Virus record (IMG/VR): IMGVR_UViG_3300025133_000094
Location: 1,182-65,181 of that record
Origin: a virus
Taxonomy: Duplodnaviria > Caudoviricetes
Strand: one strand, 5' to 3'
DNA length: 64,000 nt
The notes beneath the pieces are model-generated. The model had not been told where the DNA came from and did not search any database. It was given only the letters and a program-made list of their open reading frames with translations. Position numbers and translations under genes: made by a program. Position 1 is the first letter of the stretch, and each line of letters opens with the position of its first letter. Shown here piece after piece: positions 408-62,295 of this stretch.

Positions 408-713
408 ATGGGACTAGACTATAGAGAAGATGGTAGATTTATTAAAGAAGATGGCGAAGCCCGTAAGCCAAAGAACGATCCGCATAATCCTAAGAATCTA
501 ATGAGGAGACAAAGAGACAAGGAGGGGGATGGCTATAATCAAGCCAAAGAAGGGTGGAGTCCAACAGCGTGGAATGATAGCGGTGCTGGTAAGGGAGACG
601 CACCTAGACCACATGGTTGTTCGACAGAAGAGTGGGGATTGAAATATGATTTAGCTACCGGAAGAATAACTAAAGAAGAATTCGATAAAGGTATGGAGGA
701 ACTCAACTCTTGA
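408..713 (+). CDS. Hypothetical phage protein (an ATG at 315 would give a leaderless alternative start)
   Basis: ORF 315-713; GGAG precedes ATG 408; stop overlaps the RNAP start. Confidence 0.6.
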   Translation: MGLDYREDGRFIKEDGEARKPKNDPHNPKNLMRRQRDKEGDGYNQAKEGWSPTAWNDSGAGKGDAPRPHGCSTEEWGLKYDLATGRITKEEFDKGMEELNS

Positions 714-3151
714 AGTGGGCTAATGAAACAGATGTAACTAAGAGTAAAAGGCGGGGTGCTCAAGTAAAGTATGAAGAACAAGTACTTATGTATAGTCGTT
801 CTAAATATTGGGATGAATATAATAGAGCACCTGATGAGGGTGTTCCAGAACAAGAGCTTCTTGATTCTTCTGTTAAAGAATTAAGAGATACTTATCAAGA
901 GTGGATAGATAATGCCGTGTCTTCAACTAAGACACCGTCTTGGGTAAGACCTCTACTAGAATTGGGTGCATCTAAGATGGCCGATATAACTATACGAGCT
1001 GTCATGAGATGTTGGTTCTCTTCTAATTTCTGGGGACATACACTAGAAGATGATACTCATAACGCACCACTAGCTCAGACAGTTGCTAATTTAATAGCAC
1101 AAGATAGTTCAGATATAATATCTTATCAGAATGCTAAGAGTAATAACAAAAGCGATTGGATGAGTCAATCCAAGTTCATTAAAAACTGGACAGAGAAAAG
1201 ATGTAAAGCTTTTTCTAAAAAGATGGGCGAACATATTAAACTTGGTATAAAAGAGAAGCATAACTTTGGGCATAACATGTTACGTATAGCTGCGACTAGT
1301 AATATAATAAACATGGAGGTTCGCTCTGTTAGACGGGGTAGGTTATATAAGAAGTATAGCTTTGTAGAGTTTCATTCTTCTATACTATCTAAACTACACA
1401 ACAAACATGCGTTACTACAGACTAGTACTCTAGTCTATAGGCCTATGCTTACGCCTCCTGAATTACATACCGAAGCGTCTAGTGGTGGGTATATACACAG
1501 AGATATGCGTAAGCCTGTAGTACAGAGATATAAATCTAACTACTGGGGTGATGATATTAAGGATCAGAAGTTTTCTGTTCCATCTAGCTTAGTATTAGAT
1601 GGACTCAATGGTTTAATGTTAACTGAATGGGCTGTTAATGAGGATGTATTAGAAGTTATGACAAGCATGTTTGAAAATAATATGTGTGTTGCTAATCTTC
1701 CTGCCTATAATTTTGAAGAGTTTATGTATAATGTGGAGTATCCCTCTGATGGTACTAAAGTAGATAAAGCTATATGGTGTCAGCGTAGACAGGAAGCGTG
1801 GTCGGACTGGTATAGACAAGAACAATCTCGTGGACGTATGTTAATTAGATTACAATTAGCTAATGACCTTAAGAAGTGGGGGTATTTTTATCAAGTATAT
1901 ACTCTAGATTTTAGGGGACGGGCTTATACTATATGTGAACTGCTTAGTTGTCAGTCTTCTGACTTTGATAAAGGCTTAGTTAAGTTTGCTAATCCTGTAA
2001 AGCTTACAGCTAGAGGTCTTTGGTGGTTAAAGGTTAGCTTAGCTGGGCTCTTTGACCAAGACAAGGGCACACTCGAGTCTCGTGTTAAATGGGTTGATGA
2101 TAATTGGGATATGATAAAACGTATTAACGATAATCCTTATGAGAACTATGAGTGGATAGATCAACGAAAGAAAAAGAATAAATCTTTTCAAAGGTTAGCT
2201 GCTATAAAGAATATATGTAGAGAGGATGGCATGTCTTATTTACCAGTACAGTTAGATGGTAGGTGTAATGGTTCTCAGCATTGGTCTGCTATTATGGGAG
2301 ATCCTTTAATAGCTGAGAAAACTTGTGTCATTCCTTCAAAGAAACCTCAGGATTTATATCAGTTTGTTGCTGACTCAGTAACAGACTATTGTTTACTACA
2401 TAAAACCGAAAAAAAATGGTGCAAAATTTTTCTGGAACATTGGAATGGCTCTATAGATAGGGCTGTTGCTAAACGTCCTACTATGTGTGACCCATATGGT
2501 TTAACATTTTATGGAATACAAAAGTATTTAAAAGTAGAAGGTCACCTTGACTGGGTATCTAAAGATAAACAAGGGGGAGCTATAGTTGAATTAGCTAGAG
2601 CTATAAAGGCAAGCATGGATAAATGTTTAGCCGAACCTAACAGGGGTAAAGAATATTTAAAAGAGGTCGTTGGTATAGCCAATGATTTAAATAAACATAT
2701 AGAATATACTACCCCTTCTGGATTTAAGGTTGTTCATTATTACAACCAAGTTAATTCAAGAAGATCGGTAGCTAAGTTGTTTGGGAATAAGGAACTCTCT
2801 TTCTTTATACCAACTACAGACGTGAACAAACGGTCGGCACTACAAGCAATAGCGCCGAATTTTATTCACAGTTTGGATGCTGCTCACATGTTCCTAACAT
2901 TAGTTAGGTTGTTACATATGAGTGTGTTCAGTCTAAGTTTCATCCACGATTCTTATGGCTGTCATGCTAATTTTGTAGATGACATGAGAGATATACTCAG
3001 AGAGGAGTTCTTGAAAATTCATAATGATAATCCATTAGAAAATTTCAAGAAGGATGTACAGAATCAACTAGGTGTTATGCTACCTGAAGTACCCAAGCGT
3101 GGTGCTTTGATTATAGCTGACGTTTTAGATTCTGAATACTTCTTTGCATAA
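710..3151 (+). CDS. T7-like single-subunit DNA-dependent RNA polymerase (gp1-like)
   Basis: 813 aa; DFRGRAY, motif A QLDGRCNGSQH, motif B RAVAKRPTMCDPYG, APNFIHSLDAAH, motif C FIHDSYG; TTG start after GGAGGA. Confidence 0.98.
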   Translation: MKWANETDVTKSKRRGAQVKYEEQVLMYSRSKYWDEYNRAPDEGVPEQELLDSSVKELRDTYQEWIDNAVSSTKTPSWVRPLLELGASKMADITIRAVMRCWFSSNFWGHTLEDDTHNAPLAQTVANLIAQDSSDIISYQNAKSNNKSDWMSQSKFIKNWTEKRCKAFSKKMGEHIKLGIKEKHNFGHNMLRIAATSNIINMEVRSVRRGRLYKKYSFVEFHSSILSKLHNKHALLQTSTLVYRPMLTPPELHTEASSGGYIHRDMRKPVVQRYKSNYWGDDIKDQKFSVPSSLVLDGLNGLMLTEWAVNEDVLEVMTSMFENNMCVANLPAYNFEEFMYNVEYPSDGTKVDKAIWCQRRQEAWSDWYRQEQSRGRMLIRLQLANDLKKWGYFYQVYTLDFRGRAYTICELLSCQSSDFDKGLVKFANPVKLTARGLWWLKVSLAGLFDQDKGTLESRVKWVDDNWDMIKRINDNPYENYEWIDQRKKKNKSFQRLAAIKNICREDGMSYLPVQLDGRCNGSQHWSAIMGDPLIAEKTCVIPSKKPQDLYQFVADSVTDYCLLHKTEKKWCKIFLEHWNGSIDRAVAKRPTMCDPYGLTFYGIQKYLKVEGHLDWVSKDKQGGAIVELARAIKASMDKCLAEPNRGKEYLKEVVGIANDLNKHIEYTTPSGFKVVHYYNQVNSRRSVAKLFGNKELSFFIPTTDVNKRSALQAIAPNFIHSLDAAHMFLTLVRLLHMSVFSLSFIHDSYGCHANFVDDMRDILREEFLKIHNDNPLENFKKDVQNQLGVMLPEVPKRGALIIADVLDSEYFFA

Positions 3152-30568: not shown

Positions 30569-30699
30569 GTAGCGGTGAGTGTAAAAAAAGTAAAACAATG
30601 CGGCTAAAGAAAAAGTATTCTCATGGCGGAGGAAGCAATAAAAGTAAGGTTTCTGGTAAGTTTAGAAAGATAACACCTAATAGAAATAAACCCAAATGA
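30565..30699 (+). CDS. Small Lys-rich protein (44 aa)
   Basis: ATGA overlaps at both ends and fills the gap between terminase genes; MSSGECKKSKTMRLKKKY... Confidence 0.55.
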   Translation: MSSGECKKSKTMRLKKKYSHGGGSNKSKVSGKFRKITPNRNKPK

Positions 30700-53900: not shown

Positions 53901-56900
53901 TCTGGTATGTGGACTACAGAACAAGCTACTGAATTAGTTAAACTAAAGGAACAATTACAGTCAGCTGATGCTACTGATAGAAGTGTATTAGGCTTTACTA
54001 GAGCCGAGCAATCTGTAGCTTGGGAGCAGCTTACACACGAATTCTCTAGATTCGAGATCGAAGAAGGTACCCCAAGTGGGGAACGTATACTAGATATAGT
54101 AAGAGTTTTTAATGAAGGCAATAGTAAACAGAAGGCTCAAGCTATGGATTGGTTACTCTCTCAGATTCAAAAAATATATGGTTCAGCTATAACGGCGAAG
54201 AGTGGTGAGTTTTTCGCCATTGCTGCTAGGAAAGCCGAATCTATTCTACCGGGACTGGCTACCGATAGAATAAGAAGTATGCTAACAAACTTAATGGCCG
54301 CTAATACAGGAGCTCAGTATACTTGGAATAGCATATCTATTATGCCGGTACTGCTAACAGCTTTACTGGACGATGAGGTTGTTACTACTTTCGCTGACTT
54401 TACAAAAGGAGATACTCCGTCTGTACGTAGAACATTAGATGCCTTTAATAAGTATAGCGATCTTCTAAATGGAGAACAGGGAGAAATACTTAGTCTTATA
54501 AATAGTATTGGAGCCAAGGCTTTAGGAACAGGACCCAGTGAACACGCCGCTGCGTTAATGCAGCATATTAACGAAGCTGTACTAAGGGGTGCTCAGTCTT
54601 TAAGGGGAGGCGCACACTTTAATATCGATGAAGAAATACACCCTAGTGTAAGAAACCATCCTAAGTGGGCTGAGATTAAAGTACATATTCTCGGTGGTGA
54701 GTTACGGGGCGATAAAGTCTTCGGAATGATAGAAGCATATAAAAATCAGATAGAAGCTATTGAATCTAAGGGCATAGAGATTGGAGAGTTTAGTAGAAAC
54801 TTTATACAAATAGCTCCATGGTATTTCTCAAAGAGTTTAATGGATGGCGATAATATGGATATGTTCTGGAGAGAAATGCCTATAGAAATAGATAATCATA
54901 TACGGCAAGAGCTTGATAAAAAACACGCAGGTATTGATCCCTTATACTTCTTTCAAGCAGGACTCCTACCCAGAGTAGATACATTTTTAATGGCAGATCT
55001 AAAGCAGATGGAAACGACACACTTACACATGCTAAGAGTTATAGCCGGTCTTGTTAACAAGAGGGTTAATCCAGATGTTGCTCACATGCTTACGGATCCT
55101 GTAGATGAATTATTTGCTAGACTGGAAAGTGAAAATGTAACTGTTAATACTATGTGGAGAGAGGCTACTAGTAAAACTGTTGGTTTTCTAATGTCGCAGA
55201 TGGGACGCCAAGATTATACATTCAAGCGTCTTGTTAAGGATCTTAAAATATATAGCCCTGATATAACTAAAGTAGAAATAAATGCTATTAGACTTGCGTA
55301 TAAAAACGTAATAGGTACCGATGTAGGATCAAGTCGCTTGTCATCGTTACGTGCTTTAAATAATAAAGCTATACCCTCTAGTGTATGGGCTCCTGGCTCT
55401 TTAACATCAGCAGGAGTTAAAATGAAAACAGAAGGTCTTATGACAGCGGCTGATATGCATACTAGAAATATACTAGTACGAGCATCTGGTGGAGTTTACT
55501 TCTCTAACGATTCTTGGTCTATCCCTAGCGTATTAGATGTTGTTGCGAGAAATGACAAAATTAGATCAGTAGTATCTTTCGATACACCCGCTATCTCAGG
55601 AGCATTGCTTAGGGGCGTTGGTGATAGAATATTTGAACTTAACATGATGCACGAACTATTTGGGATTTATGGCGACTACAGATCTATTATAAACCTGTTT
55701 GCAGAAGTTGTAGATAAACCCTTTAGAGAGATAACAAATCCAGACGGAACACTTGTTAATACTAAAGAATTGCTGAAGAGTGCTCATATACTTCTAGATA
55801 AGTGGAGAGCCTATCGACACATTAAACAAGTACCAGATCATCAAAGTAGTATGGAAGCTTGGCTATTTAAGAATGCTCCTAACTTCGTGAAGATTGTATT
55901 TGGACCTAGTTTATCTCTAGCGTCTCTGTCTACCGAACATACTTTAGCTATGATGAGTGAGTTACTTGGAAAGAGAAGTATAGGCGGCTTTGCTAGACAA
56001 GCTCTAGGTCCGCTTACATCTCTATCAAAAGAAAGAAGAAAACGAATAGCGCGTAGTATGGCTAGTAGCTTAACCAGAATAGATAAAGCTTTTCTACCTG
56101 ACTCTCAAATGCCAGCAACAATGGACAAGGCAGGATTTTTAGATAAGTGGTCAAGCCTTAACATGAGAATAGCCCATCATGTTCATGAGAGTATAGGAAT
56201 GGCGCGGACAGAGAATATTAGATTAGAGATAGCTGATATGATTAAGGACGGTAAAATTGAAAACCTAATTAAACTAATGCACAAATCCGGTGACCAAGCA
56301 TATCTACGAACAGATGAACTTTTATCTAACCCCGATCATCTTATAAAATTAGCACGAGAGGCAAAGATAGGTTCTGCCTTTGATACTGTTATAATCACAA
56401 TGAATAAAACAGGTTTATTAAATATGGGTACCTTTGCCATGATGCAGCAAATGGTAGTTGAGAGTACTCAAGAATATAATAGATATTACGATACAAATGA
56501 AATGCTGATGCTCTTATTAGAGAATAAGAAAACTATGGATAATGATGTCTTCCGAATGAGAGAAGATATTATCCAAGCTCTTAGAGATGTCGAGACTGCT
56601 TATGTACACGATGTTATGGTGCAGGCTAAACCAATGGATACCTCTACTCGTGGCGGAATGATGGATTATATATTTGAGCTATTTAGAAAGTATCCAGTTC
56701 TCTTCTTCCTACAACACGTTATGAGAAAATCTAGTAGGCATACCCCGATAAGATGGGCTACTGGCGTTATGGCTTTGATGCTTCTTGATGTGTTATATAT
56801 GATGTTACTACGTATATCTATGGGAAACCGCCCAGAAGATATAATTAAAGCAGCTGAAGACGATCCAGTAGGATTCTTTTTGATGTATGGAAGTCGTCTG

Positions 56901-57467
56901 CCGATATTTGGACGTTACGGCGGCCTTGTAGCTGAGGGAATTAACATAGCGTATTCAGGTATAAACAATCAAACGCCCGGTGCCTTTATACCTAGTGCTG
57001 CTATTACGGCTCAGACCAAAGGTATTATTAGAGCAGTAGGAGATCCTACTGTAGCTAACCTTATTAATGCTAGTAGAACAGTTCCAGGAATGGATCCCCT
57101 TATACGGATGGCTCTTATACACGGACTGGGAGGCAAGGAACTAGAGAAAAAATCTAAAGGCTCTGGTACTTCGCCTAGTAACCAACGTCATGCTACTTGG
57201 GGACTCAGCCAAGCCGATAGTCAGATTACTGATCTTATGTTAGCTACTGAGCTGGTTAAGTATCTTGATGTTGGCGATGAAGCACGATGGCTACCGCAGG
57301 TTGCGGCTAACCAAAGAGGTAACTTATTCTCTGCCAAACCTATGCCCGCTGAGCCCGCAGAAGCCCCTGCTGCCCCTACTATGGAAAGTGTTGGGGAGCC
57401 TAGTATGGTGTCAAGGATGGAACAGCCAGGAGGATCTAAATTAGCTGATCTATTGCAAGATAAGTAA
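41916..57467 (+). CDS. Giant polyvalent virion protein (5183 aa): zincin, putative virion RNA polymerase, DEDDy exonuclease, zincin
   Basis: HEVGH (44640); GHDMMFSG (D at 47898) plus RAFMKLPLMRAMYG (48264); DIE, HNGVSFD, YAEGD (51918-52532); HELSH (53313); GTG start after GGAG. Confidence 0.85.
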   Translation: MANRLWNVAPIDPVFSHSFINEHYEEEVGELNRLNNALPFKGVTRKDYENFSMSARRDRFTGELVRGPLELWDSLRQSGDMYFKRGYTATHAGAEQLSASLMLRTEEEREKLKDTKYLKYSSEGTEFLKSFSEGTVWNFARMTGRTYTDLNGKTRWRVPIDPLNGIGDGSWGMAATPEDIFKHEAPEGWTPKEALKEMEEVDPDMLQKYQMFLGGEEEVKKITKDTRNPYEFFYRLNEELQNRNIAESLAYQFKQNEEAGKSYINWYEQWGKEFLISSIINDPDMAGSLTIAAALTVTTGIGGVIAEVIHAGAKIGRYGKTADRLLTLAAGVHKVTAMVPKGAMFLPENLGPSLIRLKFGAQAWKTKSFVNRAGWITLGNIGEGTITGALAELSNQTFQIDKQSMDEYHQKEILRQAMFEAAISPIINPMLGSVMFRVPRLPLYTMSFINRGIGKLRPSAGARGTAVGNYFKSIVSKMNIDHIGQRIQGSRDVLRAAKDWGHMLGQDPKKIEALLNDEGLVQIFAAIMKAKGIDESFTIAHISEAIADLRKAHDENVRLALEEGKPVPATFSEIELGAMLARTVLAKQGLQLSQLDGATQNLVGDMGMRLFILGEKKKKFEADKIEMTWEEFAKHIEDNDPELFWREGVPQESKKSGETLFEEQVGGNWGALPWREKLGWAMYADDIAVDAVAAKKEIKLDEINKISNEVDAIRNDIVPKTEKEIDTKREAEAATTENVEERLEEVKHDIDGVIHATNDENAKIQEELDKFADTLLVSPEPGETVAVIDVTGDIKAEMQARLEGQPFTKEGFTLDENGILWDDRIDAEAVSEINQIIEEVAGDAVVIREVVIDDLSDIDGLDAAAMITGMGVDSQGNLVFKITISEHVAGLLVHERADFRDAGRQTVAHEVGHAVHDQMTDAEMKEFLAILEAEGIVTDAMNHGDLTQEAFADLWAMYMNPDATFHFAGINLENPGMSARPKGQEVKNRADIPAMMLAFLRKIRDRLRIKSAKAETAAAEASTVTLENLDSIQRFGVLWDYAAANGWVKDTPSVQMKWESNFEGLKNLIKQQLQRKLTPSEQTPEEESLRRRQKRNIKFLRRLDVLGTQIDKELRAWKESEHGYSPELLDAEIQLNKVKKEHLDLINQFEKEQPALHSVQKIYRESLSILRGKIFFSETTMGDLKAEVKVTELDSADVVILRTLLDNLPAKKKIVVPKTARSGINNAVVILSNFLAGDSLMSEVKFKVIQKEVNLYLSRQFEGLAKTMARTKVEDKSKEVFEKFSDYNTIMNELIVKRIQRTGDSMLTAATIQDSLAWQESSYRTLEAYGEAWTKIVNGLDAEGKTEMALSTLLRHLPRTSRYRINQTELINVGKLRRDSKIKTWKAKEIFHNETGRARKSISKLDRNAFGDIRVNIGPLDFAKNFAHEVTSDTMLNVPLTADFKKKNITPGTTLDGSKVVMEETVMSFEDWRHHLELWHADPAEPHNKTDEGDVIITGTQLLANLDPDFRAKGVGLASMFRGALINQWKTIEDLRRLNTETPTLKFRYKDVATALSEKAAAGRLLSHIESNAIITELAEQAFQQLDKHNNPSLYNAHDVAIEVINQVESSFKKADKAGYDMFGFVLRWDDENGLPVHSPHTVDKDTWISAVKKQVVKRLEVATHGGIKPDTLNRIYDIFGIRELKPDAQTKLSTPQYEQLADIMVSNLHRTRRNGPTIDIADFGNGNREWHSAYDLGNQIVDAFTKEEMYTTKQLYASKDIHPDARGSEAEVGPGEKTAVQPPLEGDLNFVTRRSLWEIDRIMKNGLFREGRIAFVLNRDNLTSSVIKAYNKVKEEGGFRFPEGTIHVSDVMPVSLIPYVQGDILQQPPMTQEQVKKYLLNIALNTPQQANTIVHDKIIAAKDNVLRLNQKDGMPIATEFIGMGGDFGYPYHMVGMIRAMELGSVHAKGLTKNSINLVSKLQAEWQENHKVDLSTEEGLNKARRDFFDHSTGHDMMFSGRYLTFMQSRMGDPKLAEQMFQIEKAVAELLYNEDLGEYQYDINVLQTETKEWYRAGTLHILNLITGLNQAQRSRLGAKVKPLLDILQPLRDNDINTLEDWKIFEDKNPNDPKVRVIRAFMKLPLMRAMYGMEKAGWLKIFRDSEGTDMLKKVYKTLEIELDSTDIEHIGDILFHGAIEGTGQLMYRALGLEYEGEPGKSPKAEALKWMEMDRSADTLLTTVKDLLKSHGTELRSSRDSSGREFNKLYQLDTHEKYLKASIETQASVEFRTNEPTAEQIKKIKDKYAPLREMEDFLKQDDIPSDFGPGHKRWNEYKQIPYKNLMPESQIGAFRAFTTLNSSGYRIAIKALETTARHLGLENFNADIFLGLERYVFYHNMLPSEKAVRGFDTQAGSGMSPIGIGIEKVLTNEALFKEWATTEWAKLKADRKAKGDTSPMTIAEYDTLVRKYIALDPDRAEILGTQELVDGGLIQMYKENGLESVEAEIEMLMLQNELLYQSTYGPPQLINYHLEDDIAILNNQTAMNWFKNTVENADTRAREKANQEQLLSDSQNNAYAEKMLELVQQAGNNLLRSQGPIKPYVNTERARLDVFPNNSDPLTILNQQQKGVRAFDPLYTTVPYTDKPNFFFLKQYHERKMREISHTLDLIVDESSKEQHVLDPNDLGYPMPWKEKDMPKPVNTVTNDLNNILQRTDISPRTSELFHSLNNFAKRKGTLYTDALSKLEDAYPYMYLTMKMEEAKDNIILAKRRFRTEMTPAEITALRAEWLGDLHTLSQFSRDTKLAEIGPHALETAGMDIAFANVPSEAIAIIDQLQSIYASEDKPNGLLFQPTMLQGPLKMGLTPADIRIQAKDDQGNPTDELVYTDLEANPLANQNMDMSILLFAIEYPNYIKPIIDEHYPQYSDIKTFEDWTLLIDPKHKVEIEALAAESVTGADGKGFGQSIVFDMSIMDSLHEGKIDPNRVLLTIDEANIVEVDGEQINYQLNHLLSKAGFGFFMQSPSAIKGKTLQMTISHRGALKMMLMLENHAPFRRMRESMWAKIPYGTVETALGEIDISRPTNEILRDKFGHNMRASHEDNIELHGALSVMAKTVGEKKLKPTYDPTRGMKGSKRFAMTDLDYYSVNKLADSGLVRPWLESHISVLSEVVTSARRSGYEMFQKELFTEIDTLIEGARKGEQENIATAIAFSVMFSQGEQTGNWTPDHQMMRVFMDERNFNEGEVSNALMKADLLLNKIAKATDLDTTWFNNPINLRARAYIQNMTKADLENFTEGDNTSKLTGMFIESLGETPDIGHYVVNELGDALDLLGGEGVNLHESVDYRAWLEDREKVINVDIETNLSQDNISVITLSQKDTGFKNTVRGKKVGDWVTPDQAQEHLNFLEDMQNKGYKVAFHNGVSFDTRILGNVAGSRHSDASMQTAVQNQASRIAIRTVDSLDNGRSFKGEMVEYTDSGKIRSKGNNYYVSLSNLAKALGIKQTKSLEFGGLEAALLFERVRGETVTLGSEAKKVGMTQEHIDVINNTTKMKAWNKFKKYAEGDAELGYKVLYGDGDVQGLADIRGELTVDYAPDPKTGNERKVTLNVEEMMPTWLLSQRESGRFHGTLSQFSEWENVNTITRALSNTDHTARSMVGFEGESFLIDNGGEQLTVNAKQAKAAIGLAIGEWQAEKHYEPTSWLDDEVLQFTYNNVKSAKKFREFAIDRDDAHLENLGITIEKLVLNEYINNEDAVMFRAMILRLNQINPFTVKDITMETIQRLVKETKPGSAERVGDSYKLRIGEEATQLLGKTEGHMSVVQMFAHELSHLTRLRFVDENNGTWQRWLAYAESNAGKAMMLKLVTQWHGGIETQAVLNEVDGYIRDPEEFIAAQTSFFLLNDVQHIQADFTADEYKAYSESVGIVTRIINNVRDMFRKIADVFVEFEKTDSDAYKEMVSLVTHTLGYKNKGHLKAVRKGQRDGQLYWMDRIEVNRKKYKYSLDDLKTMVIREKQLEKIRDISGMWTTEQATELVKLKEQLQSADATDRSVLGFTRAEQSVAWEQLTHEFSRFEIEEGTPSGERILDIVRVFNEGNSKQKAQAMDWLLSQIQKIYGSAITAKSGEFFAIAARKAESILPGLATDRIRSMLTNLMAANTGAQYTWNSISIMPVLLTALLDDEVVTTFADFTKGDTPSVRRTLDAFNKYSDLLNGEQGEILSLINSIGAKALGTGPSEHAAALMQHINEAVLRGAQSLRGGAHFNIDEEIHPSVRNHPKWAEIKVHILGGELRGDKVFGMIEAYKNQIEAIESKGIEIGEFSRNFIQIAPWYFSKSLMDGDNMDMFWREMPIEIDNHIRQELDKKHAGIDPLYFFQAGLLPRVDTFLMADLKQMETTHLHMLRVIAGLVNKRVNPDVAHMLTDPVDELFARLESENVTVNTMWREATSKTVGFLMSQMGRQDYTFKRLVKDLKIYSPDITKVEINAIRLAYKNVIGTDVGSSRLSSLRALNNKAIPSSVWAPGSLTSAGVKMKTEGLMTAADMHTRNILVRASGGVYFSNDSWSIPSVLDVVARNDKIRSVVSFDTPAISGALLRGVGDRIFELNMMHELFGIYGDYRSIINLFAEVVDKPFREITNPDGTLVNTKELLKSAHILLDKWRAYRHIKQVPDHQSSMEAWLFKNAPNFVKIVFGPSLSLASLSTEHTLAMMSELLGKRSIGGFARQALGPLTSLSKERRKRIARSMASSLTRIDKAFLPDSQMPATMDKAGFLDKWSSLNMRIAHHVHESIGMARTENIRLEIADMIKDGKIENLIKLMHKSGDQAYLRTDELLSNPDHLIKLAREAKIGSAFDTVIITMNKTGLLNMGTFAMMQQMVVESTQEYNRYYDTNEMLMLLLENKKTMDNDVFRMREDIIQALRDVETAYVHDVMVQAKPMDTSTRGGMMDYIFELFRKYPVLFFLQHVMRKSSRHTPIRWATGVMALMLLDVLYMMLLRISMGNRPEDIIKAAEDDPVGFFLMYGSRLPIFGRYGGLVAEGINIAYSGINNQTPGAFIPSAAITAQTKGIIRAVGDPTVANLINASRTVPGMDPLIRMALIHGLGGKELEKKSKGSGTSPSNQRHATWGLSQADSQITDLMLATELVKYLDVGDEARWLPQVAANQRGNLFSAKPMPAEPAEAPAAPTMESVGEPSMVSRMEQPGGSKLADLLQDK

Positions 57468-57527
57468 TAACGAGGGGCCCAGGTCATCTTGAGCAAGGAA
57501 GCTCGTACAGGCGATCCTAGGGCCCTT

Positions 57528-57558
57528 AAAAGACAAAGGAGAAATCCTTTGTTTTTTT
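57528..57558 (+). terminator. Intrinsic terminator ending the late operon
   Basis: ACAAAGGA-GAAA-TCCTTTGT followed by a T run; A-tract upstream suggests it may work in both directions. Confidence 0.85.
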
Positions 57559-57696
57559 CCACGGGAATCGACTATAGGGGTCACGAATTTATCTGGGGTG
57601 GTGTATGGATTAGCAGGGCTGTAGTGCCCCCCGTACCCCCCAGGTTGACGCCTGCCAGGCTGGTGGTATTCGTAGCAGGTAAAAAGGAAAATTATT

Positions 57697-57966
57697 ATGC
57701 TTATAATAATAGGGATCGTAGCGATCATTGGCATCGTGGCAGTAGTACTCACTGTACTGAACTTGGACCATCCTAGTATGAGTCTGGAGGAGGACAGTGA
57801 TGATCTACGCCGCCGTCATAACCAGAAGGTTCGTAACGCTGGTTATACAACGATGAAAATTCTCGTCGAGGACGAGGATCGAAAGTGCTGGTCGTGTGGG
57901 CATATATTTGGAACTGACGACTCCATGTGTTGCCGACACTGCGAGCACCCAATGGCGAGCGAGTAA
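57697..57966 (+). CDS. Membrane-anchored zinc-ribbon protein
   Basis: N-terminal hydrophobic helix; CWSC...CRHC; AAGGA RBS. Confidence 0.7.
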   Translation: MLIIIGIVAIIGIVAVVLTVLNLDHPSMSLEEDSDDLRRRHNQKVRNAGYTTMKILVEDEDRKCWSCGHIFGTDDSMCCRHCEHPMASE

Positions 57967-58033
57967 GCCGAAACTACCGGCGTGAGCCTGGTAGTCTGTC
58001 GTGAGTGGTCTCACGGCACTGACGAGGCAGACC
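57967..58033 (+). ncRNA. Type II hammerhead ribozyme, predicted cleavage after C57996
   Basis: GCC-GAAA-CTACC..GGTAG-TC^-TGTCGTGAG..CTCACGGCA-CTGACGA-GGC: complete core and three stems; 3' AGACC can pair with loop I GGTCT. Confidence 0.93.
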
Positions 58034-58070
58034 CTCAGCTCTCTGGTGCTTAGCACCAAAGGAATCCTTT

Positions 58071-58313
58071 ATGAAAAAAGGAAAAAGTAAGAAAGGTAAG
58101 CCGAATCCTTCGAAGAGACGGCGCACTACGTTGCAGCGAGCCGCGGCAGAAGCCCGTACTCGCATGAACAAGGATCGTCGTATAGCACGTTCGATGCGTT
58201 TCAGCGGTAGCAAAGGTTGTATTCGTTTAACCGAATGGATATATAATAGCCGCCGAGACAGCTTAGTATCTCGAACTAATCGCAAAGCAATCGTCCACGT
58301 TCCTGCTGCATAA
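58071..58313 (+). CDS. Small, very basic (Lys/Arg-rich) protein, possibly nucleic-acid binding
   Basis: 80 aa, MKKGKSKKGKPNPSKRRR...; AAGGA RBS inside the hairpin AAAGG-AAT-CCTTT. Confidence 0.7.
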   Translation: MKKGKSKKGKPNPSKRRRTTLQRAAAEARTRMNKDRRIARSMRFSGSKGCIRLTEWIYNSRRDSLVSRTNRKAIVHVPAA

Positions 58314-58446
58314 GTAGGATTCTAAGGGCATTCCACAACTAACTCAAGGCACTAACAAAAAGGAGACTTTGCCTATGATTTAAGGACTGCTAGTACCTAT
58401 ACTTCGGGAGTGTTACACTAATATCCTTTAATGGAGAATTTCTATT

Positions 58447-60294
58447 ATGAAATCAAAAGATATAAAGACCGCATCAGAGAATGTGGCATCAAAGCTAGCA
58501 TTACAGCGAGGACGCCTACGTTCTTTCTTGTTCCACAGAGGTGGAAAGAAAGTAACGGGCGTGGCTGTGGACCACCTCCTTGGTCTGACCGAGGAAGCAT
58601 TGTTCGACAACGGTATCGTCGTGGACAGTGACATGCTCAACGGAGCTGTCGCCCAAGGCGTTACTACAGCAACTCGTAAGATACTACATAAGAACCTATT
58701 GACCGAATCTTGGCAGGCTCGTCGTGACGGCAACGTCTCGACAAACCCTATCGAGTTGACGGGATACTGGAAACCGATCGTCTCACGACGTGACAACCTT
58801 AAGCTGCCCTCTGAGTATAAGGACTTTATGCAGTATCAAAGTAATATAGCAGTTCGTTACAACAAAGACATGGTGACTGCCCTAGTCGCATGGCAAGAGA
58901 AGTTTGGTCCTGATGACAAACTTGTTCTCTCTAAACGAGATCTTGAGACCATCAATAAGGTAGGGTACGTAGTTATCTACCAACCTTACTACATTGCATG
59001 TCGCGTTGCACGTATCTACCAAGGCACACAGGGTGCAGGTGGCTACACTAACGGCAAGGGGGTACGCTATAGTACTGAGTTCGCTGAAGGTCGAAAGGTT
59101 AATGGCAAGCAACAGGCACAATTTATGACTCACATAAAAGCTGAGTATAAGTATAAGAAGGCTCATTCAAAATTCTTAGGTGACAATACACTGGCTAACC
59201 GTACTGCGTTCTTACGTAAGTATGGTAACCCTGGTTTGTTACGTGCGTGTCTCGAGCTTATCTACATTGCTGAGACTAAGAAGTCAACGATGATTATCTG
59301 GCAAGACGTGCACACCTCATTAGTGTGTCATATCTATGCTATGTTGCGTCGTAAGAACTTACGCAGTATTGTAGACATTAACCATCCAAAGTGGTTCAAT
59401 CGTCATGATTACTACATGAACAACATGTTAAGTAGCTCTCTCGATAGCGCTCCTTTCTTTCGAGCATGTACTCCAGGACAACGTGCATTGTTTACTAAAC
59501 CATCCTTTGTACCGTTTGGTCACGGAGCTGGTGCTGACTCTTGTCGGTACTCTGTACTCAACACAGATGATATGCACTGGAATGCCGAAGCTCCAACGGA
59601 ATTGCGTGACACTATGAGCTTGAACGAATTGGTTGACGCCATACGTACAGGCACTAAGCAGGTCCGAATTCCTGAACAGTTCAAACTTGCTCTTCGAGCA
59701 GCTTGGCCTGGTTGGAGTAAGAAGAAAGCTATTACTGAAGATATGTACAAGGACAAACTTGTTATAATCTTTGATGATCTTAAGACTGTGTTCGCTGGTT
59801 CCTACAATCCATTAGTTCGGTTTAATAACCGTGCCGTATTGGTGAAAGAGGCATCAGATACTATAGGCAAGCTACCACCTTCATATACCAACAGGTTTGG
59901 AATGAAGCTCGTGCAAACGAGATGGAAGCGAGATCCTAACAGCTCACGCACTATTAAGAACAAAACCACTTTAGCTGGTGTTACTCCCACGCCATTGGAT
60001 GTTACCTTCGATAAGCGAGTCGCCTGCACAGGCAGCGAGTTCGCAGTCAGTATGCCTCACTATAAGGATGCTGAAATGAATGTCGGAATCGGTAATGAAT
60101 TCATCCAAGCTGATAAAGACTGCCTAAGTATCCACGATGCTTGGGGTGTACGGCTAGAAGACATGGACTTCTTAATTGAAGTCAGTGCCAGACAGTTTAG
60201 ATACACGCATGAAGAACCTATGCTTAATAGCATGGGGTATGAAGTGCCTGCAACTTTACCACACCTTGGTGATAAATTCCAAATCGTTCGTTAA
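58447..60294 (+). CDS. Divergent, short T7-family single-subunit polymerase (615 aa)
   Basis: Colinear motifs RVARIYQ (DxRGRxY-like), WQDVHTS (A, D287), RALFTKPSFVPFGHGAG (B), PHYKDA, LSIHDAWG (C, D564). Confidence 0.88.
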   Translation: MKSKDIKTASENVASKLALQRGRLRSFLFHRGGKKVTGVAVDHLLGLTEEALFDNGIVVDSDMLNGAVAQGVTTATRKILHKNLLTESWQARRDGNVSTNPIELTGYWKPIVSRRDNLKLPSEYKDFMQYQSNIAVRYNKDMVTALVAWQEKFGPDDKLVLSKRDLETINKVGYVVIYQPYYIACRVARIYQGTQGAGGYTNGKGVRYSTEFAEGRKVNGKQQAQFMTHIKAEYKYKKAHSKFLGDNTLANRTAFLRKYGNPGLLRACLELIYIAETKKSTMIIWQDVHTSLVCHIYAMLRRKNLRSIVDINHPKWFNRHDYYMNNMLSSSLDSAPFFRACTPGQRALFTKPSFVPFGHGAGADSCRYSVLNTDDMHWNAEAPTELRDTMSLNELVDAIRTGTKQVRIPEQFKLALRAAWPGWSKKKAITEDMYKDKLVIIFDDLKTVFAGSYNPLVRFNNRAVLVKEASDTIGKLPPSYTNRFGMKLVQTRWKRDPNSSRTIKNKTTLAGVTPTPLDVTFDKRVACTGSEFAVSMPHYKDAEMNVGIGNEFIQADKDCLSIHDAWGVRLEDMDFLIEVSARQFRYTHEEPMLNSMGYEVPATLPHLGDKFQIVR

Positions 60295-60307
60295 TAACTA
60301 GTACGGA

Positions 60308-60334
60308 GGGGGAGGCCATATGTTTGGTCTCCCC
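60308..60334 (+). other. GC-rich intergenic hairpin without U tract
   Basis: GGGGAGGCCA-TATGTT-TGGTCTCCCC. Confidence 0.6.
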
Positions 60335-60366
60335 TGATGTACGCAATCAGGAAAGGGATTTCTATT

Positions 60367-60942
60367 ATGACTAAAACAAAGAAATCAAAGTTACGCTGGG
60401 CCTCTCTTATATATCCAGCATCTATGGCTGATATATCAGGTCACTGTATTCTTGTCTTCGATACGGAACTTAAGAATTATACCATTAGGTTCCTTACCCA
60501 TGATCTTGACCCTAAGCACATGTATTACTCAGGTGTTACGGAAGAGGTAATTGGTGTAGACGGCAACAGTATTACTAAAGGTGAGATTGGTAATATATGT
60601 AATAGAATCGGCTTACGCTTGAAGCCTCGCTTAGAGATAAATACTTTCGATGTGAGTGAGTATTATACCTTACACTACGGTGATGAGGTGATTGCTACAC
60701 ACAAAGGAAATAAGATGTCTGTCTCTATTACTGGCAGAAGTACCGTTTACTTCGATGATGTAGGAGAGCCTATTGAAATCACAGTAAAAGGTAAACCTGC
60801 TGTTAGCTTAAAGGCAGCTCGTGCCTCATGGTGGAGCGAAGCAAAGAATTATCCAGCCATACACTGGAAGGGTGATTTAGCTGTGCTTTGCGTTGCTGAT
60901 GAGATCAACATCGATGTTGATGATGATGATGATGCTGCTTGA
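60367..60942 (+). CDS. Hypothetical beta-rich protein with acidic C-terminal tail (191 aa)
   Basis: Start moved to ATG 60367, which shares the ATTTCTATTATGA context with 58447; ends DVDDDDDAA. Confidence 0.75.
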   Translation: MTKTKKSKLRWASLIYPASMADISGHCILVFDTELKNYTIRFLTHDLDPKHMYYSGVTEEVIGVDGNSITKGEIGNICNRIGLRLKPRLEINTFDVSEYYTLHYGDEVIATHKGNKMSVSITGRSTVYFDDVGEPIEITVKGKPAVSLKAARASWWSEAKNYPAIHWKGDLAVLCVADEINIDVDDDDDAA

Positions 60943-60944
60943 TG

Positions 60945-61011
60945 ACTCGTCTGGGCGAGTATAAATAGAACCTAAGCCTAGAGCGTCCGACCCTACGGGG
61001 TCGGGGCGTTT
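60945..61011 (+). ncRNA. Pistol ribozyme, predicted cleavage between G61006 and C61007
   Basis: P1 ACTCG/CGAGT; loop TCTGGG pseudoknots with CCTAGA; ATAAATAG linker; TAAG..AGCG; P2 TCCGACCC-TACG-GGGTCGGG; P3 AAC/GTT. Confidence 0.92.
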
Positions 61012-61275
61012 CCCCTAAGTGGGCCTATCTACCATGATTTTTTATGAAGGGTGTACCCCGTTCAAGATACAGCCGTATAGGTGTGTAAGGGCTGTATCGC
61101 AATAGGTGGGTTAAGAGAACAAGGGTGGATATAATATAGGGTATACCTAGGTCTTAGGGTATACGTAAGTATAGCCAGGAGAACCCTAGGGTTCCAGTAC
61201 AGGGCAAGCCGGGGGACCTTAGGTCCGCGGCTTGCCCCATCAGCCAGAAATTATGGTCAAGTTCCCTGACTGGCA
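61012..61275 (+). other. Structured non-coding segment of stacked hairpins
   Basis: GATACAGCC/GGCTGTATC, GTATACC/GGTATAC, GAACCC/GGGTTC, GGGCAAGCCG..CGGCTTGCCC, GCCAG/CTGGC; no ORF. Confidence 0.6.
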
Positions 61276-61318
61276 GGTAACAGTATCATAATAATCACCC
61301 TATTAGAAGGAGAATATC

Positions 61319-61576
61319 ATGCCAAATGATAAACTTACCCCTAATGACGTGGCGAAAGCCGAAGCAGTCCTTAACGGCAAGGGTTTCACTACCGTAAAGC
61401 GGTACACAGACCCTGACACCATGGATTTCGATGAGCTGTGCTTCACTCTTAACAACAAGAGTGCTATCGCAGCAGCAACGAAGGCTATGAAACGTAAAGG
61501 TTGGACCTCGCATCCGTATCTTACACACATTAAAGCGTGTGAGGCGAAGCTAAAGTCCTTACTGGCTAACGGTTAA
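61319..61576 (+). CDS. Hypothetical protein (85 aa)
   Basis: AAGGAG RBS; followed by a hairpin. Confidence 0.8.
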   Translation: MPNDKLTPNDVAKAEAVLNGKGFTTVKRYTDPDTMDFDELCFTLNNKSAIAAATKAMKRKGWTSHPYLTHIKACEAKLKSLLANG

Positions 61577-61590
61577 AGCCCGCATTCAAC

Positions 61591-61629
61591 GGTCCCCCAG
61601 GCGGGGGGCCCTTATATGCTTGCTTTTTT
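61591..61629 (+). terminator. Possible intrinsic terminator
   Basis: GGTCCCCC-AGGC-GGGGGGCC followed by an interrupted T-rich tract. Confidence 0.5.
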
Positions 61630-61631
61630 CT

Positions 61632-62295
61632 AAGTAACAGCAACACCCTAAGCTTACAGGGGTGTAGCTCTTGAGCTATGCAAACTTCAGCAGCTCTCAG
61701 CTGATATCAAAGAGAGACAACCCACACTGGGACCCATCAACTGTGGTCGGGTGTGTACCCTGTTCAACAAAGGCGTTCGACAGGGCATGTTGTCATGGAC
61801 ATCCCATGTAACCCCGCTTTACTTATGTAATGACATGGCGAGGTGTCCGTGACAACATGAAAAACCAAGGTCGCTCCTTGGTCGGTGAGTTGGCACCTGA
61901 ATACCATCATGGTAATGCATTACTATGATGGGGCTAGAGGGCTTCACTCGTTCTAATAGAGTGACATCGATATCTAATAAACTAATGCACGACGGTGCAG
62001 TTCGTGGCTGAACAATCTCTTCAGTAAGGAGATAAGGCACACAGTAGACCATGGTGGTCTGACCAATGTACACAATGTATGAGGTCATCCTCGTGACTGA
62101 GGATAAGGTGGTAGGTGGTTGTAACAAATAATATTGCTCCTCTGCCCTGTAGGTAATAAAAGAATCCTACCGAACACAAACAACAACCTTGTGAGACATG
62201 CACGGAGGTGTGTAGTCCTAGGCTACCTAAACTAGATGCCCTCACATTGTAGTATAACCTCTCGTCTCGTCCACGATACGGACACAATATACTTA
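61632..62295 (+). ncRNA. Candidate large structured non-coding RNA, class not recognised
   Basis: About 660 nt with no credible ORF and at least 10 hairpins, several with G-U pairs that favour the + strand. Confidence 0.6.

What the first reader, a model, noticed from the sequence alone, without database searches (positions are those of the whole stretch)
58447..60294. Second, short T7-family polymerase with His at the Y639 substrate-selection position
Seen: both catalytic Asp motifs (QD287VHTS, IHD564AWG) and the motif B Lys (K351) are kept. K+8, which is Y639 in T7 RNAP, is His359 (FGHGAG); K+4 (T7 M635) is Val; DxRGR has become CRVAR. The protein is about 200 aa shorter than the phage's own canonical RNAP, mostly at the N-terminus. 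Established: Y639 helps discriminate rNTP from dNTP, and the N-terminal domain contributes to promoter binding and opening. Inference: this is an active but repurposed enzyme, possibly with changed sugar or template specificity (primase, RNA-templated or dNTP-using), or an N4 RNAPII-like enzyme that needs a cofactor.
Basis: partly seen in the sequence, partly recalled or inferred. Interest (0 to 1): 0.9.

Follow-up and report, generated by a model that had tools for sequence, protein, structure and literature searches.

The report
Second, stripped-down T7-type polymerase gene
An uncultured marine T7-like phage carries, beside its normal RNA polymerase, a fast-evolving 615-residue copy of the same enzyme type that lacks the promoter-binding front part and has a rebuilt sugar-sensing pocket, so what it copies and what it makes is an open, testable question.

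Summary

New here:
- His359 is clade-specific: 6 of 16 family members have His, 10 have Tyr.
- Leu292 replaces T7 G542, the small residue that makes room for the 2'-OH.
- No Arg lies at the R627 position.
- All the shortening (215 aa) lies before the D421 equivalent.
- 7 of 14 related phage records carry such a gene, 16-20% identical where their canonical RNAPs are 54-63% identical.
- dN/dS is 0.155.

Best reading: an active, minimal second transcriptase that needs a partner or an unusual template, working like N4 RNAPII without belonging to that family. Changed sugar or template specificity stays open. Its biochemistry is untested. The scan did not note this protein on other DNA.

The parts
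58447..60294 (+). CDS of the 615-aa second, minimal T7-fold polymerase
   Evidence: ORF and RBS; fold and profile matches to T7, mitochondrial and N4 RNAPs; dN/dS 0.155
58447..58707 (+). N-terminal ~87 residues, predicted helical, standing in for T7 residues 1-262. No beta-hairpin is predicted here.
   Evidence: DSSP of the model. VIA alignments to elongation complexes start at model 85-92, matching T7 260-266. Segment lengths. Blocks of 10 residues at 21-40 and 81-90 have mean pLDDT under 50.
58999..59013 (+). C185-R-V-A-R189, remnant of the T/DxxGR motif: C185 matches T7 D421, R189 matches T7 R425
   Evidence: hhalign. R189 is nearly invariant. The D421 column is C in 7, D in 6 and S in 2 of the 15 rows that cover it.
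59305..59331 (+). Motif A, D287-V-H-T-S291-L292-V-C-H295. It holds catalytic Asp287 (T7 D537) and Leu292 at the T7 G542 (2'-OH room) position.
   Evidence: Ungapped hhalign register in which D, S and H coincide; codons; family columns
59497..59526 (+). Motif B, K351-P-S-F-V355-P-F-G-H359-G360: K351 = T7 K631, V355 = M635, H359 = Y639, G360 = G640
   Evidence: The His codon is CAC or CAT in the window and in L002-L005. The model is helical only up to residue 353, and pLDDT is about 60 here.
59920..60033 (+). Residues 492-529: a low-confidence beta-hairpin in the place of the T7 specificity loop, directly before the H784 equivalent
   Evidence: Strands 501-505 and 517-521, pLDDT under 50; position relative to H538; the columns are very variable
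60058..60069 (+). H538-Y-K-D541, equivalent of T7 H784..D787
   Evidence: The column is H in 13, Q in 2 and A in 1 of 16 rows.
60133..60138 (+). Motif C, H563-D564 (T7 H811-D812), at the turn between strands 559-562 and 565-568
   Evidence: D564 is invariant in 16 of 16 rows
57966..58036 (+). Context: type II hammerhead ribozyme about 410 nt upstream of the polymerase start
   Evidence: Rfam RF02276, 51.5 bits against gathering score 37, E 1.5e-8. Not found in L002 or L004, the two relatives that hold at least 900 nt upstream.
60337..60942 (+). Context: co-conserved downstream ORF (201 aa, or 191 aa from the second Met) with an acidic Asp-rich C-terminal tail and no known family
   Evidence: 54-57% identical copies sit in the same place in L002 and L003.
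60945..61011 (+). Context: pistol ribozyme starting 3 nt after the stop of the 201-aa ORF
   Evidence: Rfam RF02679, 66.1 bits against gathering score 34.5. Present after the same ORF in 4 of 4 close relatives L002-L005.
61986..62180 (+). Context: manA RNA motif
   Evidence: Rfam RF01745, 69.2 bits against gathering score 55.2. L003 also scores above gathering (59.8 bits); the L004 copy is cut by the contig end and scores 53.1 bits, below gathering.
710..3151 (+). Context: the phage's canonical 813-aa T7-type RNAP with all canonical pocket residues (D400, R404, D516, G521, R584, K588, M592, Y596, H720, D747)
   Evidence: PF00940 E 3e-77; residue mapping

Best explanation
The gene encodes a catalytically competent, minimal single-subunit polymerase of the T7 RNAP fold. 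It keeps a shortened thumb, the palm and the fingers, and has only about 87 helical residues where T7 has its 262-residue promoter-binding and DNA-opening region.

Most likely it is a second DNA-dependent RNA polymerase that transcribes a subset of phage genes. Because it lacks the elements T7 RNAP uses to bind and melt a duplex promoter, it probably cannot start on closed duplex DNA by itself. It would need a phage or host partner, or single-stranded or otherwise pre-opened DNA, as N4 RNAPII does.

Its nucleotide pocket has been rebuilt in steps within the family. The gate position changed from Gly to Leu or Met, and then, in the window's clade only, Tyr changed to His. His can still stack and can still donate or accept a hydrogen bond to a 2'-OH, so rNTP use is the default expectation.

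Shown: fold, motif register, conservation, purifying selection, synteny.
Inferred: RNA synthesis, dependence on a cofactor, role in the transcription programme.
For: Fold and register:
- Foldseek PDB and BFVD agree.
- hhalign to canonical RNAPs: 97.5%, E 6e-12.
- Profile against PDB sequences: POLRMT 4.6e-8.
- Protein-language-model features are nearest to clusters carrying PF00940.

Active site kept:
- K351 and D564 are invariant in 16 of 16 rows.
- D287, S291, G360 and R189 are in at least 90% of rows, at 16-21% overall identity.
- One family member (L025) still scores 105.7 bits on PF00940.

Functional gene: dN/dS is 0.155 over 325 codons, window against L005.

Lineage trait:
- A separate second-polymerase ORF is present in 7 of 14 related records. 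The 7 without one are fragments, 12-40% complete.
- It sits in the same place: about 1 kb after the giant virion protein and 5.6-7.6 kb before the canonical RNAP on the same strand.

Missing front part: 185 residues precede the D421 equivalent, against 400 in the phage's own RNAP and 421 in T7. Only helices are predicted in residues 1-82.

Precedent: N4 RNAPII is a 673-aa minimal T7-like RNAP with truncated N-terminal and thumb domains. It binds only ssDNA and is recruited by the ssDNA-binding protein gp2 (PMC4496689, passages read).

A G542V T7 RNAP variant was selected for keeping transcription with natural NTPs, so a branched aliphatic residue at the gate is compatible with RNA synthesis (PMC4551944, passages).
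Against: - No assay and no RNA data exist. No RNA run was listed.
- Several of the T7 residues next to the incoming nucleotide differ here: G542 to Leu292, Y639 to His359, and no Arg at the R627 position (Ala347). [quoted passage not shown]
- Two prolines (P352, P356) and two glycines (G358, G360) lie at or next to the C-terminal half of what is the O-helix in T7. The model is not helical there and its confidence is only about 60.
- No cofactor was identified. No N4 gp2 homolog was found in this genome (an empty answer that shows nothing).
- No repeated promoter-like motif was found.
- The phage already has a complete canonical RNAP, so the need for a second transcriptase is unexplained.
Confidence: 0.55

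Rival explanations
1. The enzyme has changed sugar selectivity. With Leu at the position that is Gly in RNAPs and Glu in family A DNA polymerases, and without the Tyr hydroxyl, it would prefer dNTPs or accept both sugars. It would then make DNA or mixed primers or short DNA de novo, acting as a primase-like or repair-like enzyme in a T7 RNAP fold.
For: - L292 aligns to G542 without gaps. The position is L or M in 10 of the 15 rows that cover it, and in all 6 His-bearing rows.
- H359 replaces Y639, whose hydroxyl bonds the 2'-OH (PMC4551944 and PMC11617373, passages).
- The H784 column is Gln in two His-clade members, P0005 and P0040.
- Y639 and G542 substitutions in T7 RNAP widen 2' specificity.
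Against: - The phage already has a T7-type primase-helicase and a PolA.
- The G542V T7 RNAP variant still transcribes with rNTPs.
- His can hydrogen-bond a 2'-OH.
- Five family members keep Gly and ten keep Tyr, so the family's ancestral state looks like an RNAP.
- All best structural matches are RNAPs, not DNA polymerases.
Confidence: 0.2
2. It is an RNA-templated polymerase that copies or extends the ribozyme-delimited RNA of its own cassette or the neighbouring structured RNAs. From recall, T7-type RNAPs can copy some RNAs, and the plastid T7-type RNAP copies hammerhead viroids.
For: The gene lies between a hammerhead (57966-58036) and a pistol ribozyme (60945-61011), with a manA RNA 1 kb downstream. 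The pistol is kept in 4 of 4 close relatives.
Against: - The hammerhead is absent in 2 of 2 close relatives with enough upstream sequence.
- No ribozyme was found in the 8 stretches searched from the more distant relatives, 4 of which cover a second polymerase and its flanks, so the link is not a family trait.
- Ribozymes cutting right after stop codons are simply explained as mRNA processing sites in long polycistronic transcripts.
- No circular or antisense RNA evidence exists.
Confidence: 0.07
3. It is the same enzyme with a different role in time: a small RNAP made late, packaged and delivered with the giant ejection proteins to start early transcription, giving an N4-like strategy with a separate small polymerase.
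For: In the window the gene follows the 5183-aa virion protein by about 1 kb. In the complete relative G012 it follows the homologous 4728-aa giant protein by about 1.1 kb. In this record it sits at the right end, with the canonical RNAP 1.9 kb from the left end, as in T7.
Against: No virion proteomics exist. The record ends may be assembly ends; IMG/VR found no terminal repeats. In a circular map the gene is equally well described as lying upstream of the early region.
Confidence: 0.1
4. It is a decaying or non-catalytic paralog kept for a structural or regulatory role.
For: It evolves very fast (16-20% identity where the canonical RNAPs of the same records are 54-63% identical), has no Pfam hit, and has an unusual motif B.
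Against: Both catalytic Asp and the Lys are invariant across the family. dN/dS is 0.155. The ORF is full length in every relative.
Confidence: 0.05

Closest known systems
Bacteriophage T7 RNA polymerase and the canonical Autographiviridae RNAPs (Pfam PF00940)
   Different: No PF00940 hit. 215 fewer residues before the D421 equivalent. D421 to Cys, G542 to Leu, M635 to Val, Y639 to His, and no Arg at R627. It is a second copy beside a canonical RNAP, and lies on the far side of a 96% SH-aLRT branch from 14 canonical rows in a quick tree of 27 rows.
N4 RNAPII (gp15 + gp16), the minimal cofactor-dependent T7-like RNAP
   Same: Similar total size (615 against 673 aa), truncated N-terminal domain and thumb, and a phage that uses more than one polymerase (PMC4496689). 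This is the best model for how the enzyme may work.
   Different: One chain, not two genes. No special sequence affinity: hhalign probability is 15% to gp16 and 6% to gp15, although the aligned pieces are the right motifs. gp16 groups with the canonical RNAPs in the tree. No gp2 homolog was found. The phage is T7-like, not N4-like.
Mitochondrial RNA polymerases (POLRMT, Rpo41)
   Different: They are far larger, with PPR and N-terminal extensions, and keep canonical Tyr and Gly pocket residues (the last point is recalled, not tested here).
divPolA2 (Yutin et al. 2024, PMC11348598)
   Same: An extra, divergent family-A-superfamily polymerase beside a regular one in a phage, with its product unknown. 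The authors consider an RNAP role (passages).

Membership tests
T7-like single-subunit RNAP (PF00940) | Right-hand thumb/palm/fingers fold superposable on T7 RNAP | tested here: met
T7-like single-subunit RNAP (PF00940) | Score above the Pfam PF00940 gathering cut-off | tested here: not met
   0 families at E<=10. A genome-wide PF00940 search hits only the canonical RNAP. Family member L025 does pass, with 105.7 bits against a cut-off of 22.
T7-like single-subunit RNAP (PF00940) | Catalytic Asp of motifs A and C, and motif B Lys | tested here: met
   D287, K351 and D564 are in register with D537, K631 and D812. They are invariant or at least 90% conserved in 16 rows.
T7-like single-subunit RNAP (PF00940) | Motif B Tyr (Y639) and small residue at G542, the ribose-selecting pocket | tested here: not met
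   His359 and Leu292. Both are invariant Tyr and Gly in the five canonical RNAPs aligned.
T7-like single-subunit RNAP (PF00940) | O-helix Arg (R627) four residues before the Lys | tested here: not met
   The residue four before K351 is Ala347. No basic residue is conserved in that column or the next one among family members. Model confidence there is only about 60-80.
T7-like single-subunit RNAP (PF00940) | H784 equivalent | tested here: met
   H538; H in 13 of 16 rows
T7-like single-subunit RNAP (PF00940) | N-terminal promoter-binding domain with AT-rich recognition loop and intercalating hairpin (element names and limits are recalled) | tested here: not met
   Only 185 residues precede the D421 equivalent, against 421 in T7. 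Residues 1-82 are predicted as helices only. Alignments to elongation complexes begin at T7 260-266.
T7-like single-subunit RNAP (PF00940) | Specificity loop hairpin | tested here: inconclusive
   Two strands (501-505, 517-521) lie in the right place, but pLDDT is under 50
T7-like single-subunit RNAP (PF00940) | DNA-templated, promoter-specific rNTP polymerisation | not testable with these tools
   Needs biochemistry
N4 RNAPII | Heterodimer of two gene products (gp15 + gp16) | tested here: not met
   Single 615-aa ORF. All relatives are also single ORFs of 584-634 aa.
N4 RNAPII | Truncated N-terminal domain and thumb | tested here: met
   Model residues 88-185 cover T7 263-421. The N4 RNAPII description comes from PMC4496689.
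N4 RNAPII | Closer in sequence to gp15/gp16 than to other ssRNAPs | tested here: not met
   hhalign probability 15% (gp16) and 6% (gp15), against 97.5% to canonical RNAPs. gp16 groups with the canonical rows.
N4 RNAPII | gp2-type ssDNA-binding cofactor, and a virion RNAP in the same phage | tested here: inconclusive
   No gp2 match in this genome (an empty answer that shows nothing). The giant virion protein shows no RNAP by Pfam, PDB sequence search or hhalign, and its fold failed.
divPolA2 | No homologous thumb, unrelated globular N-domain, DNA polymerases as top structural hits | tested here: inconclusive
   Here the model aligns to T7 RNAP from residue 263 and RNAPs fill the top 50 entries. 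tblastn against 50,697 phage records found nothing. No divPolA2 sequence was compared directly, and the supplements of PMC11348598 could not be seen.

The most novel reading that the evidence does not exclude
This is a natural T7-fold polymerase whose ribose pocket was rebuilt in two steps: first Gly to Leu or Met at the gate, then Tyr to His. It no longer behaves as an ordinary rNTP-only, DNA-templated transcriptase. It would make DNA or mixed-sugar primers de novo, or copy the ribozyme-trimmed RNA of its own cassette. That would make it a new enzymatic activity in the T7 RNAP lineage, and a ready-made natural scaffold for modified-nucleotide synthesis.
Probability: 0.2. Interest if true: 0.85.

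Novelty: new variant of a known kind. Interest (0 to 1): 0.62.

Why it matters
T7 RNAP is the standard example of a self-sufficient transcriptase and the main enzyme for making RNA in vitro.

Here a lineage of roughly 64-67 kb marine T7-like phages keeps a second, very fast-evolving, minimal enzyme of the same fold beside the canonical one. Several positions next to the incoming nucleotide, including two of the four that engineers randomise to change 2' specificity, are naturally altered.

If it is a cofactor-dependent second transcriptase, T7-like phages can run an N4-style multi-polymerase programme. I found no paper describing this.

If its sugar or template choice has changed, it is a new activity and a natural starting point for polymerases that accept modified nucleotides.

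Either way, the graded series within one family (Gly/Tyr, then Leu or Met/Tyr, then Leu or Met/His) is a natural experiment on ribose discrimination. It can be tested with three or four recombinant proteins.

Tried and rejected
Sequence searches that gave nothing for the window's protein:
- Pfam: 0 hits.
- PHROGs: only phrog_4756, unknown function, E 5e-4.
- phmmer against PDB: nothing meaningful.
- BLASTP against the phage's own RNAP: E 2 and weaker, although one weak piece already paired the two motif C regions.
- tblastn against 50,697 phage records: no match.

Search for relatives:
- A word-based search with the profile returned only the 5 close homologs.
- IMG/VR scans with A1, P0009, P0012, P0010 and P0011 found no relatives.
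- Relatives in IMG/VR were reached only through the canonical RNAP's neighbours.
- I could not fetch the contexts of the distant homologs P0009-P0013, or of the 65-67 kb contigs that the listing of cluster members reports for P0024, P0026 and P0005.

Promoters: direct-repeat and intergenic word searches found only Shine-Dalgarno-like words and no promoter family. The sigma-70 pattern scan was at chance level, 15 found against 13.0 expected.

Cofactor candidates:
- The downstream 201-aa ORF is conserved only in the close clade.
- The upstream 80-aa basic ORF is not conserved in L004.
- The Atlas gave no usable hit for the 201-aa protein.
- Complex prediction of the polymerase with the 201-aa protein returned 'no answer' (score 0.00). 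This is no evidence either way.
- N4 gp2 against this genome: nothing.

Expression: no RNA holder was listed among the 23 sequencing runs returned.

Virion RNAP inside the 5183-aa protein (first-reader note e1-6245487):
- Pfam on four overlapping pieces: 0 families.
- phmmer against PDB: 0 hits.
- hhalign of a 3-sequence alignment against canonical RNAPs: probability 0.07%.
- AlphaFold model unusable, mean pLDDT 31.
- It is neither confirmed nor excluded.

Origin of the second polymerase: pairwise phmmer shows no special affinity to the lineage's own canonical RNAP. The quick tree has long branches and flagged long-branch joins, so recent duplication against old acquisition is not settled.

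Literature: 'Y639H' together with 'T7 RNA polymerase' gave 0 papers. 'second single-subunit RNA polymerase' together with 'phage' gave 0 papers. In the search for 'two RNA polymerases', T7-like, podovirus and marine (at least 3 of 4 terms, 200 papers), none of the 10 papers listed holds the phrase 'two RNA polymerases'.
Full report
**What the window is.** The window is bases 1182-65181 of a 65,181-bp IMG/VR virus record. CheckV estimates 96% completeness and no terminal repeats were found. All long ORFs are on the + strand. The layout is that of a T7-like podovirus:
- a canonical 813-aa RNAP (710-3151, PF00940 E 3e-77);
- a T7-type primase-helicase, PolA, RNR, portal and nozzle;
- scaffold, capsid and large terminase;
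- two giant ORFs of 2481 and 5183 aa that have no Pfam family.

The canonical RNAP is at most 27-29% identical to any RNAP in 50,697 deposited phage records, so the lineage is uncultured. Sequencing runs labelled as marine or seawater metagenomes hold the target stretch, and two related contigs carry TARA names.

**Observation.** ORF 58447-60294 (+) has 615 codons and a GGAG about 10 nt before the ATG. Direct sequence searches fail:
- no Pfam family even at E 10;
- one weak PHROG of unknown function;
- no tblastn match in the phage collection;
- nothing by phmmer against PDB.

The family is rare. Nine proteins reach E<=0.001 among 1.84 billion cluster representatives, and five close homologs (62-100% identity) appear in the 5.8-billion-cluster collection.

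A 10-sequence alignment (A1) already showed that D287, S291, K351, G360 and D564 are invariant at 19-21% identity. The A1 profile hits mitochondrial RNAP at E 4.6e-8 and T7 RNAP at 0.018, over the H784 to motif C block.

The AlphaFold2 model from A1 has mean pLDDT 75.1 and pTM 0.76. Its matches are:
- T7 and mitochondrial RNAPs by Foldseek at about 1e-10;
- phage RNAPs in BFVD at 8e-14 and weaker (ranks 1-40), with DNA polymerases appearing only from rank 45 at 2e-4;

hhalign of A1 against five canonical RNAPs (T7, the window's own, LUZ100, HTVC168P, Vibrio phage 526E57-1; A2) gives 97.5% probability and E 6e-12 over 388 columns.

**Residue map (numbering checked).**
- C185 = D421 and R189 = R425.
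- D287 = D537, S291 = S541, L292 = G542 and H295 = H545.
- K351 = K631, V355 = M635, H359 = Y639 and G360 = G640.
- H538 = H784 and D541 = D787.
- H563-D564 = H811-D812.
- The residue four before K351 is Ala347, where T7 has R627.
- The window's own canonical RNAP has the canonical residue at every one of these positions.

Segment lengths show that the shortening is wholly N-terminal. There are 185 residues before the D421 equivalent, against 400 in the phage's own RNAP and 421 in T7. The stretch between motif B and the H784 equivalent is 55 residues longer than in the own RNAP.

In the model, residues 1-82 are four helices, 85-116 is largely low-confidence coil (pLDDT under 50 at 85-95 and 110-116), and no hairpin is predicted there. 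A low-confidence two-strand hairpin (501-521) lies where T7 has its specificity loop. The names and limits of T7's AT-rich loop, intercalating hairpin, thumb and specificity loop are recalled. They come from no call.

**The wider family.** Fourteen IMG/VR records encode canonical RNAPs 53-63% identical to the window's. Searching those whole records with A1 gave matches in 9 of 14. In G005 and G006 the only match is motif C of the canonical RNAP itself, and the same is true of one of the two matches in G008.

A separate second-polymerase ORF of about 600-630 aa is present in 7 of 14: G001, G002, G004, G010, G012 and G013, plus a fragment cut by the contig end in G008. The 7 records without one are fragments, 12-40% complete.

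In the complete, terminally redundant G012 (63,982 bp), the gene starts about 1.1 kb after a 4728-aa giant ORF and ends about 7.6 kb before the canonical RNAP, on the same strand. In the window the gene starts about 1 kb after the giant ORF. Across the record ends, it lies about 5.6 kb before the canonical RNAP.

In the 16-row alignment A4:
- K351 and D564 are invariant. D287, S291, G360 and R189 are in at least 90% of rows.
- The Y639 column is His in 6 rows (P0001-P0005, P0040) and Tyr in 10.
- The G542 column, over the 15 rows that cover it, is Gly in 5 (L025, L026, L027, P0012, P0013), Leu in 7 and Met in 3. Every His-bearing row has Leu or Met there.
- The H784 column is His in 13 rows, Gln in 2 (P0005, P0040) and Ala in 1.
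- The D421 column is Cys in 7 rows, Asp in 6 and Ser in 2.

One member (L025) still has a canonical-looking T/DxxGR motif and motif A, and scores 105.7 bits on PF00940. P0009 scores 18.8 bits, below the cut-off. In all, 3 of 16 reach E<=0.01.

The family evolves very fast. In records where the canonical RNAP is 54-63% identical to the window's, the second polymerase is 16-20% identical.

Selection is nevertheless purifying. dN/dS is 0.155 over 325 codons against L005, which is not saturated. It is 0.10-0.14 in the saturated comparisons. His359 is encoded by CAC or CAT in the window and in L002-L005.

A quick IQ-TREE of 27 rows puts the 13 second polymerases and the 14 canonical rows on opposite sides of one branch (SH-aLRT 96). 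L025 is nearest the canonical side and the His clade has 100% support. The second polymerases are not nested in the lineage's own canonical clade. For this tree I left out N4 gp15 and the rows P0002, P0003 and P0038. Long branches were flagged, so the origin stays open. Pairwise phmmer shows no special affinity either.

**Surroundings.** Rfam finds a type II hammerhead at 57966-58036, a pistol ribozyme at 60945-61011 (3 nt after the stop of a 201-aa ORF) and a manA RNA at 61986-62180.

The order polymerase, then an ORF of about 195-200 aa, then the pistol, is kept in all three close loci that span the polymerase and downstream ORF. The pistol itself is found in 4 of 4 close metagenomic loci. 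manA is found in 2 of 4. The hammerhead is found in neither of the two loci with at least 900 nt upstream.

Eight stretches from the more distant relatives were searched, four of which cover a second polymerase and its flanks. None holds a ribozyme; one has manA. The ribozymes are therefore a feature of the close clade, not of the polymerase family.

Their position right after stop codons fits mRNA processing in long polycistronic transcripts. From recall, T7 itself uses host RNase III sites for this.

The neighbouring ORFs have no known family. The 201-aa protein ends in an Asp-rich tail that is kept in its homologs. That resembles the acidic tails of phage SSBs (recalled), but it is only a lead.

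**How it most likely works.** The conserved catalytic triad, the purifying selection and the T7 RNAP-like core argue for an active polymerase.

The part T7 RNAP uses to bind and open a duplex promoter is absent. The thumb region is also short: model 88-185 covers T7 263-421.

The closest functional precedent is N4 RNAPII. According to the passages of PMC4496689 read, it is a 673-aa minimal T7-like RNAP with truncated N-terminal and thumb domains. It binds only ssDNA without sequence specificity, and the ssDNA-binding protein gp2 recruits it to AT-rich middle promoters.

I therefore rate a cofactor- or template-dependent second transcriptase at 0.55. This is a statement about how it works, not about membership. 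It is a single chain, is no closer to gp15 or gp16 than to other RNAPs, and no gp2 homolog was found (uninformative).

**The pocket.** According to passages of PMC11617373, K631 and R627 hold the triphosphate, Y639 selects ribose, G542 leaves room for the 2'-OH, and H784 bonds it. [quoted passage not shown]

According to passages of PMC4551944, R425, G542, Y639 and H784 are the four residues that were randomised as proximal to the incoming nucleotide. In that work, G542V with H784S admits 2'-F pyrimidines while keeping transcription with natural NTPs, and Y639F, Y639V and Y639L variants admit 2'-modified NTPs.

The window's enzyme naturally has Leu at 542 and His at 639, and lacks the R627 Arg. 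Prolines at K+1 and K+5 and glycines at K+7 and K+9 lie in the segment that is the end of the O-helix in T7, and the model is not helical after residue 353.

It does not show a changed product:
- the G542V precedent still makes RNA;
- His can bond a 2'-OH;
- ten relatives keep Tyr and five keep Gly.

I rate altered sugar selectivity at 0.2, RNA-templated copying at 0.07, and a decayed paralog at 0.05. When the enzyme acts (early, or delivered with the virion) is a separate open question, which I rate at 0.1 for the packaged variant.

**Comparison with what is in print.** I found no paper on a second T7-type RNAP in a T7-like podovirus and none on a natural or engineered Y639H.

**Verdict.** This is a real, conserved, very divergent subfamily of T7-fold polymerases, kept as a second copy in a lineage of roughly 64-67 kb marine T7-like phages, with a stepwise rebuilt ribose pocket. 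It is a new variant of a known kind. Its biochemistry is completely open and can be tested directly with a few recombinant proteins.

Noticed in passing
window 61577-62235: The long non-coding stretch after the 85-aa ORF contains a full-length manA RNA motif (61986-62180, 69.2 bits against gathering score 55.2). manA also occurs in L003 and L011, and in L004 as a copy cut by the contig end that scores 53.1 bits, below gathering.
   Followed up: partly
window 48264-48305, inside the 5183-aa ORF 41916-57467: The R-x3-K-x3-M-x3-Y-G word is invariant in three homologs of the giant protein that are only 23-25% identical (A5: R317, K321, M325, Y329 of the segment). Pfam, phmmer against PDB and hhalign against canonical RNAPs show no polymerase, and the AlphaFold model failed with pLDDT 31. 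A virion RNAP domain is neither shown nor excluded.
   Followed up: partly
window 51900-52560: The translation of the giant ORF shows DnaQ-like exonuclease words (a DIET-type ExoI and an FHNG..FD-type ExoII) and several HExxH words. No Pfam family was reported for any piece.
   Followed up: no
window 56001-62000: G+C rises to 0.436-0.457, against 0.368-0.445 (mostly 0.38-0.42) in the rest of the window, and GC skew drops to 0.019 at 58-60 kb. The polymerase-ribozyme module may have a different history from the rest of the genome.
   Followed up: no
window 60337-60942; L002 2839-3423; L003 2225-2818: The ORF between the polymerase and the pistol ribozyme has no known family. It keeps an Asp-rich C-terminal tail in all three copies, and its stop lies 2-3 nt (L003, window) or abuts (L002) the start of the ribozyme match. 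It is a candidate partner of the polymerase, but the complex prediction gave no answer.
   Followed up: partly
window 58071-58313: The 80-aa, very basic ORF between the hammerhead and the polymerase has a same-sized counterpart in L004 (731-973) with no detectable similarity. It may not be a conserved gene.
   Followed up: partly
L011 2859-3247 and 7258-7407; L018, L020 and L022 tRNA clusters: Related phages carry 2-3 tRNA genes, each upstream or downstream of the canonical RNAP. L011 also has a tmRNA-like hit (51 bits against gathering score 47) beside its manA RNA. The window itself has no tRNA.
   Followed up: no
window 30696-32381 and 34471-57467: The large terminase lies before the two giant virion proteins. 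From recall, the late gene order therefore differs from T7, where the terminase is last.
   Followed up: no
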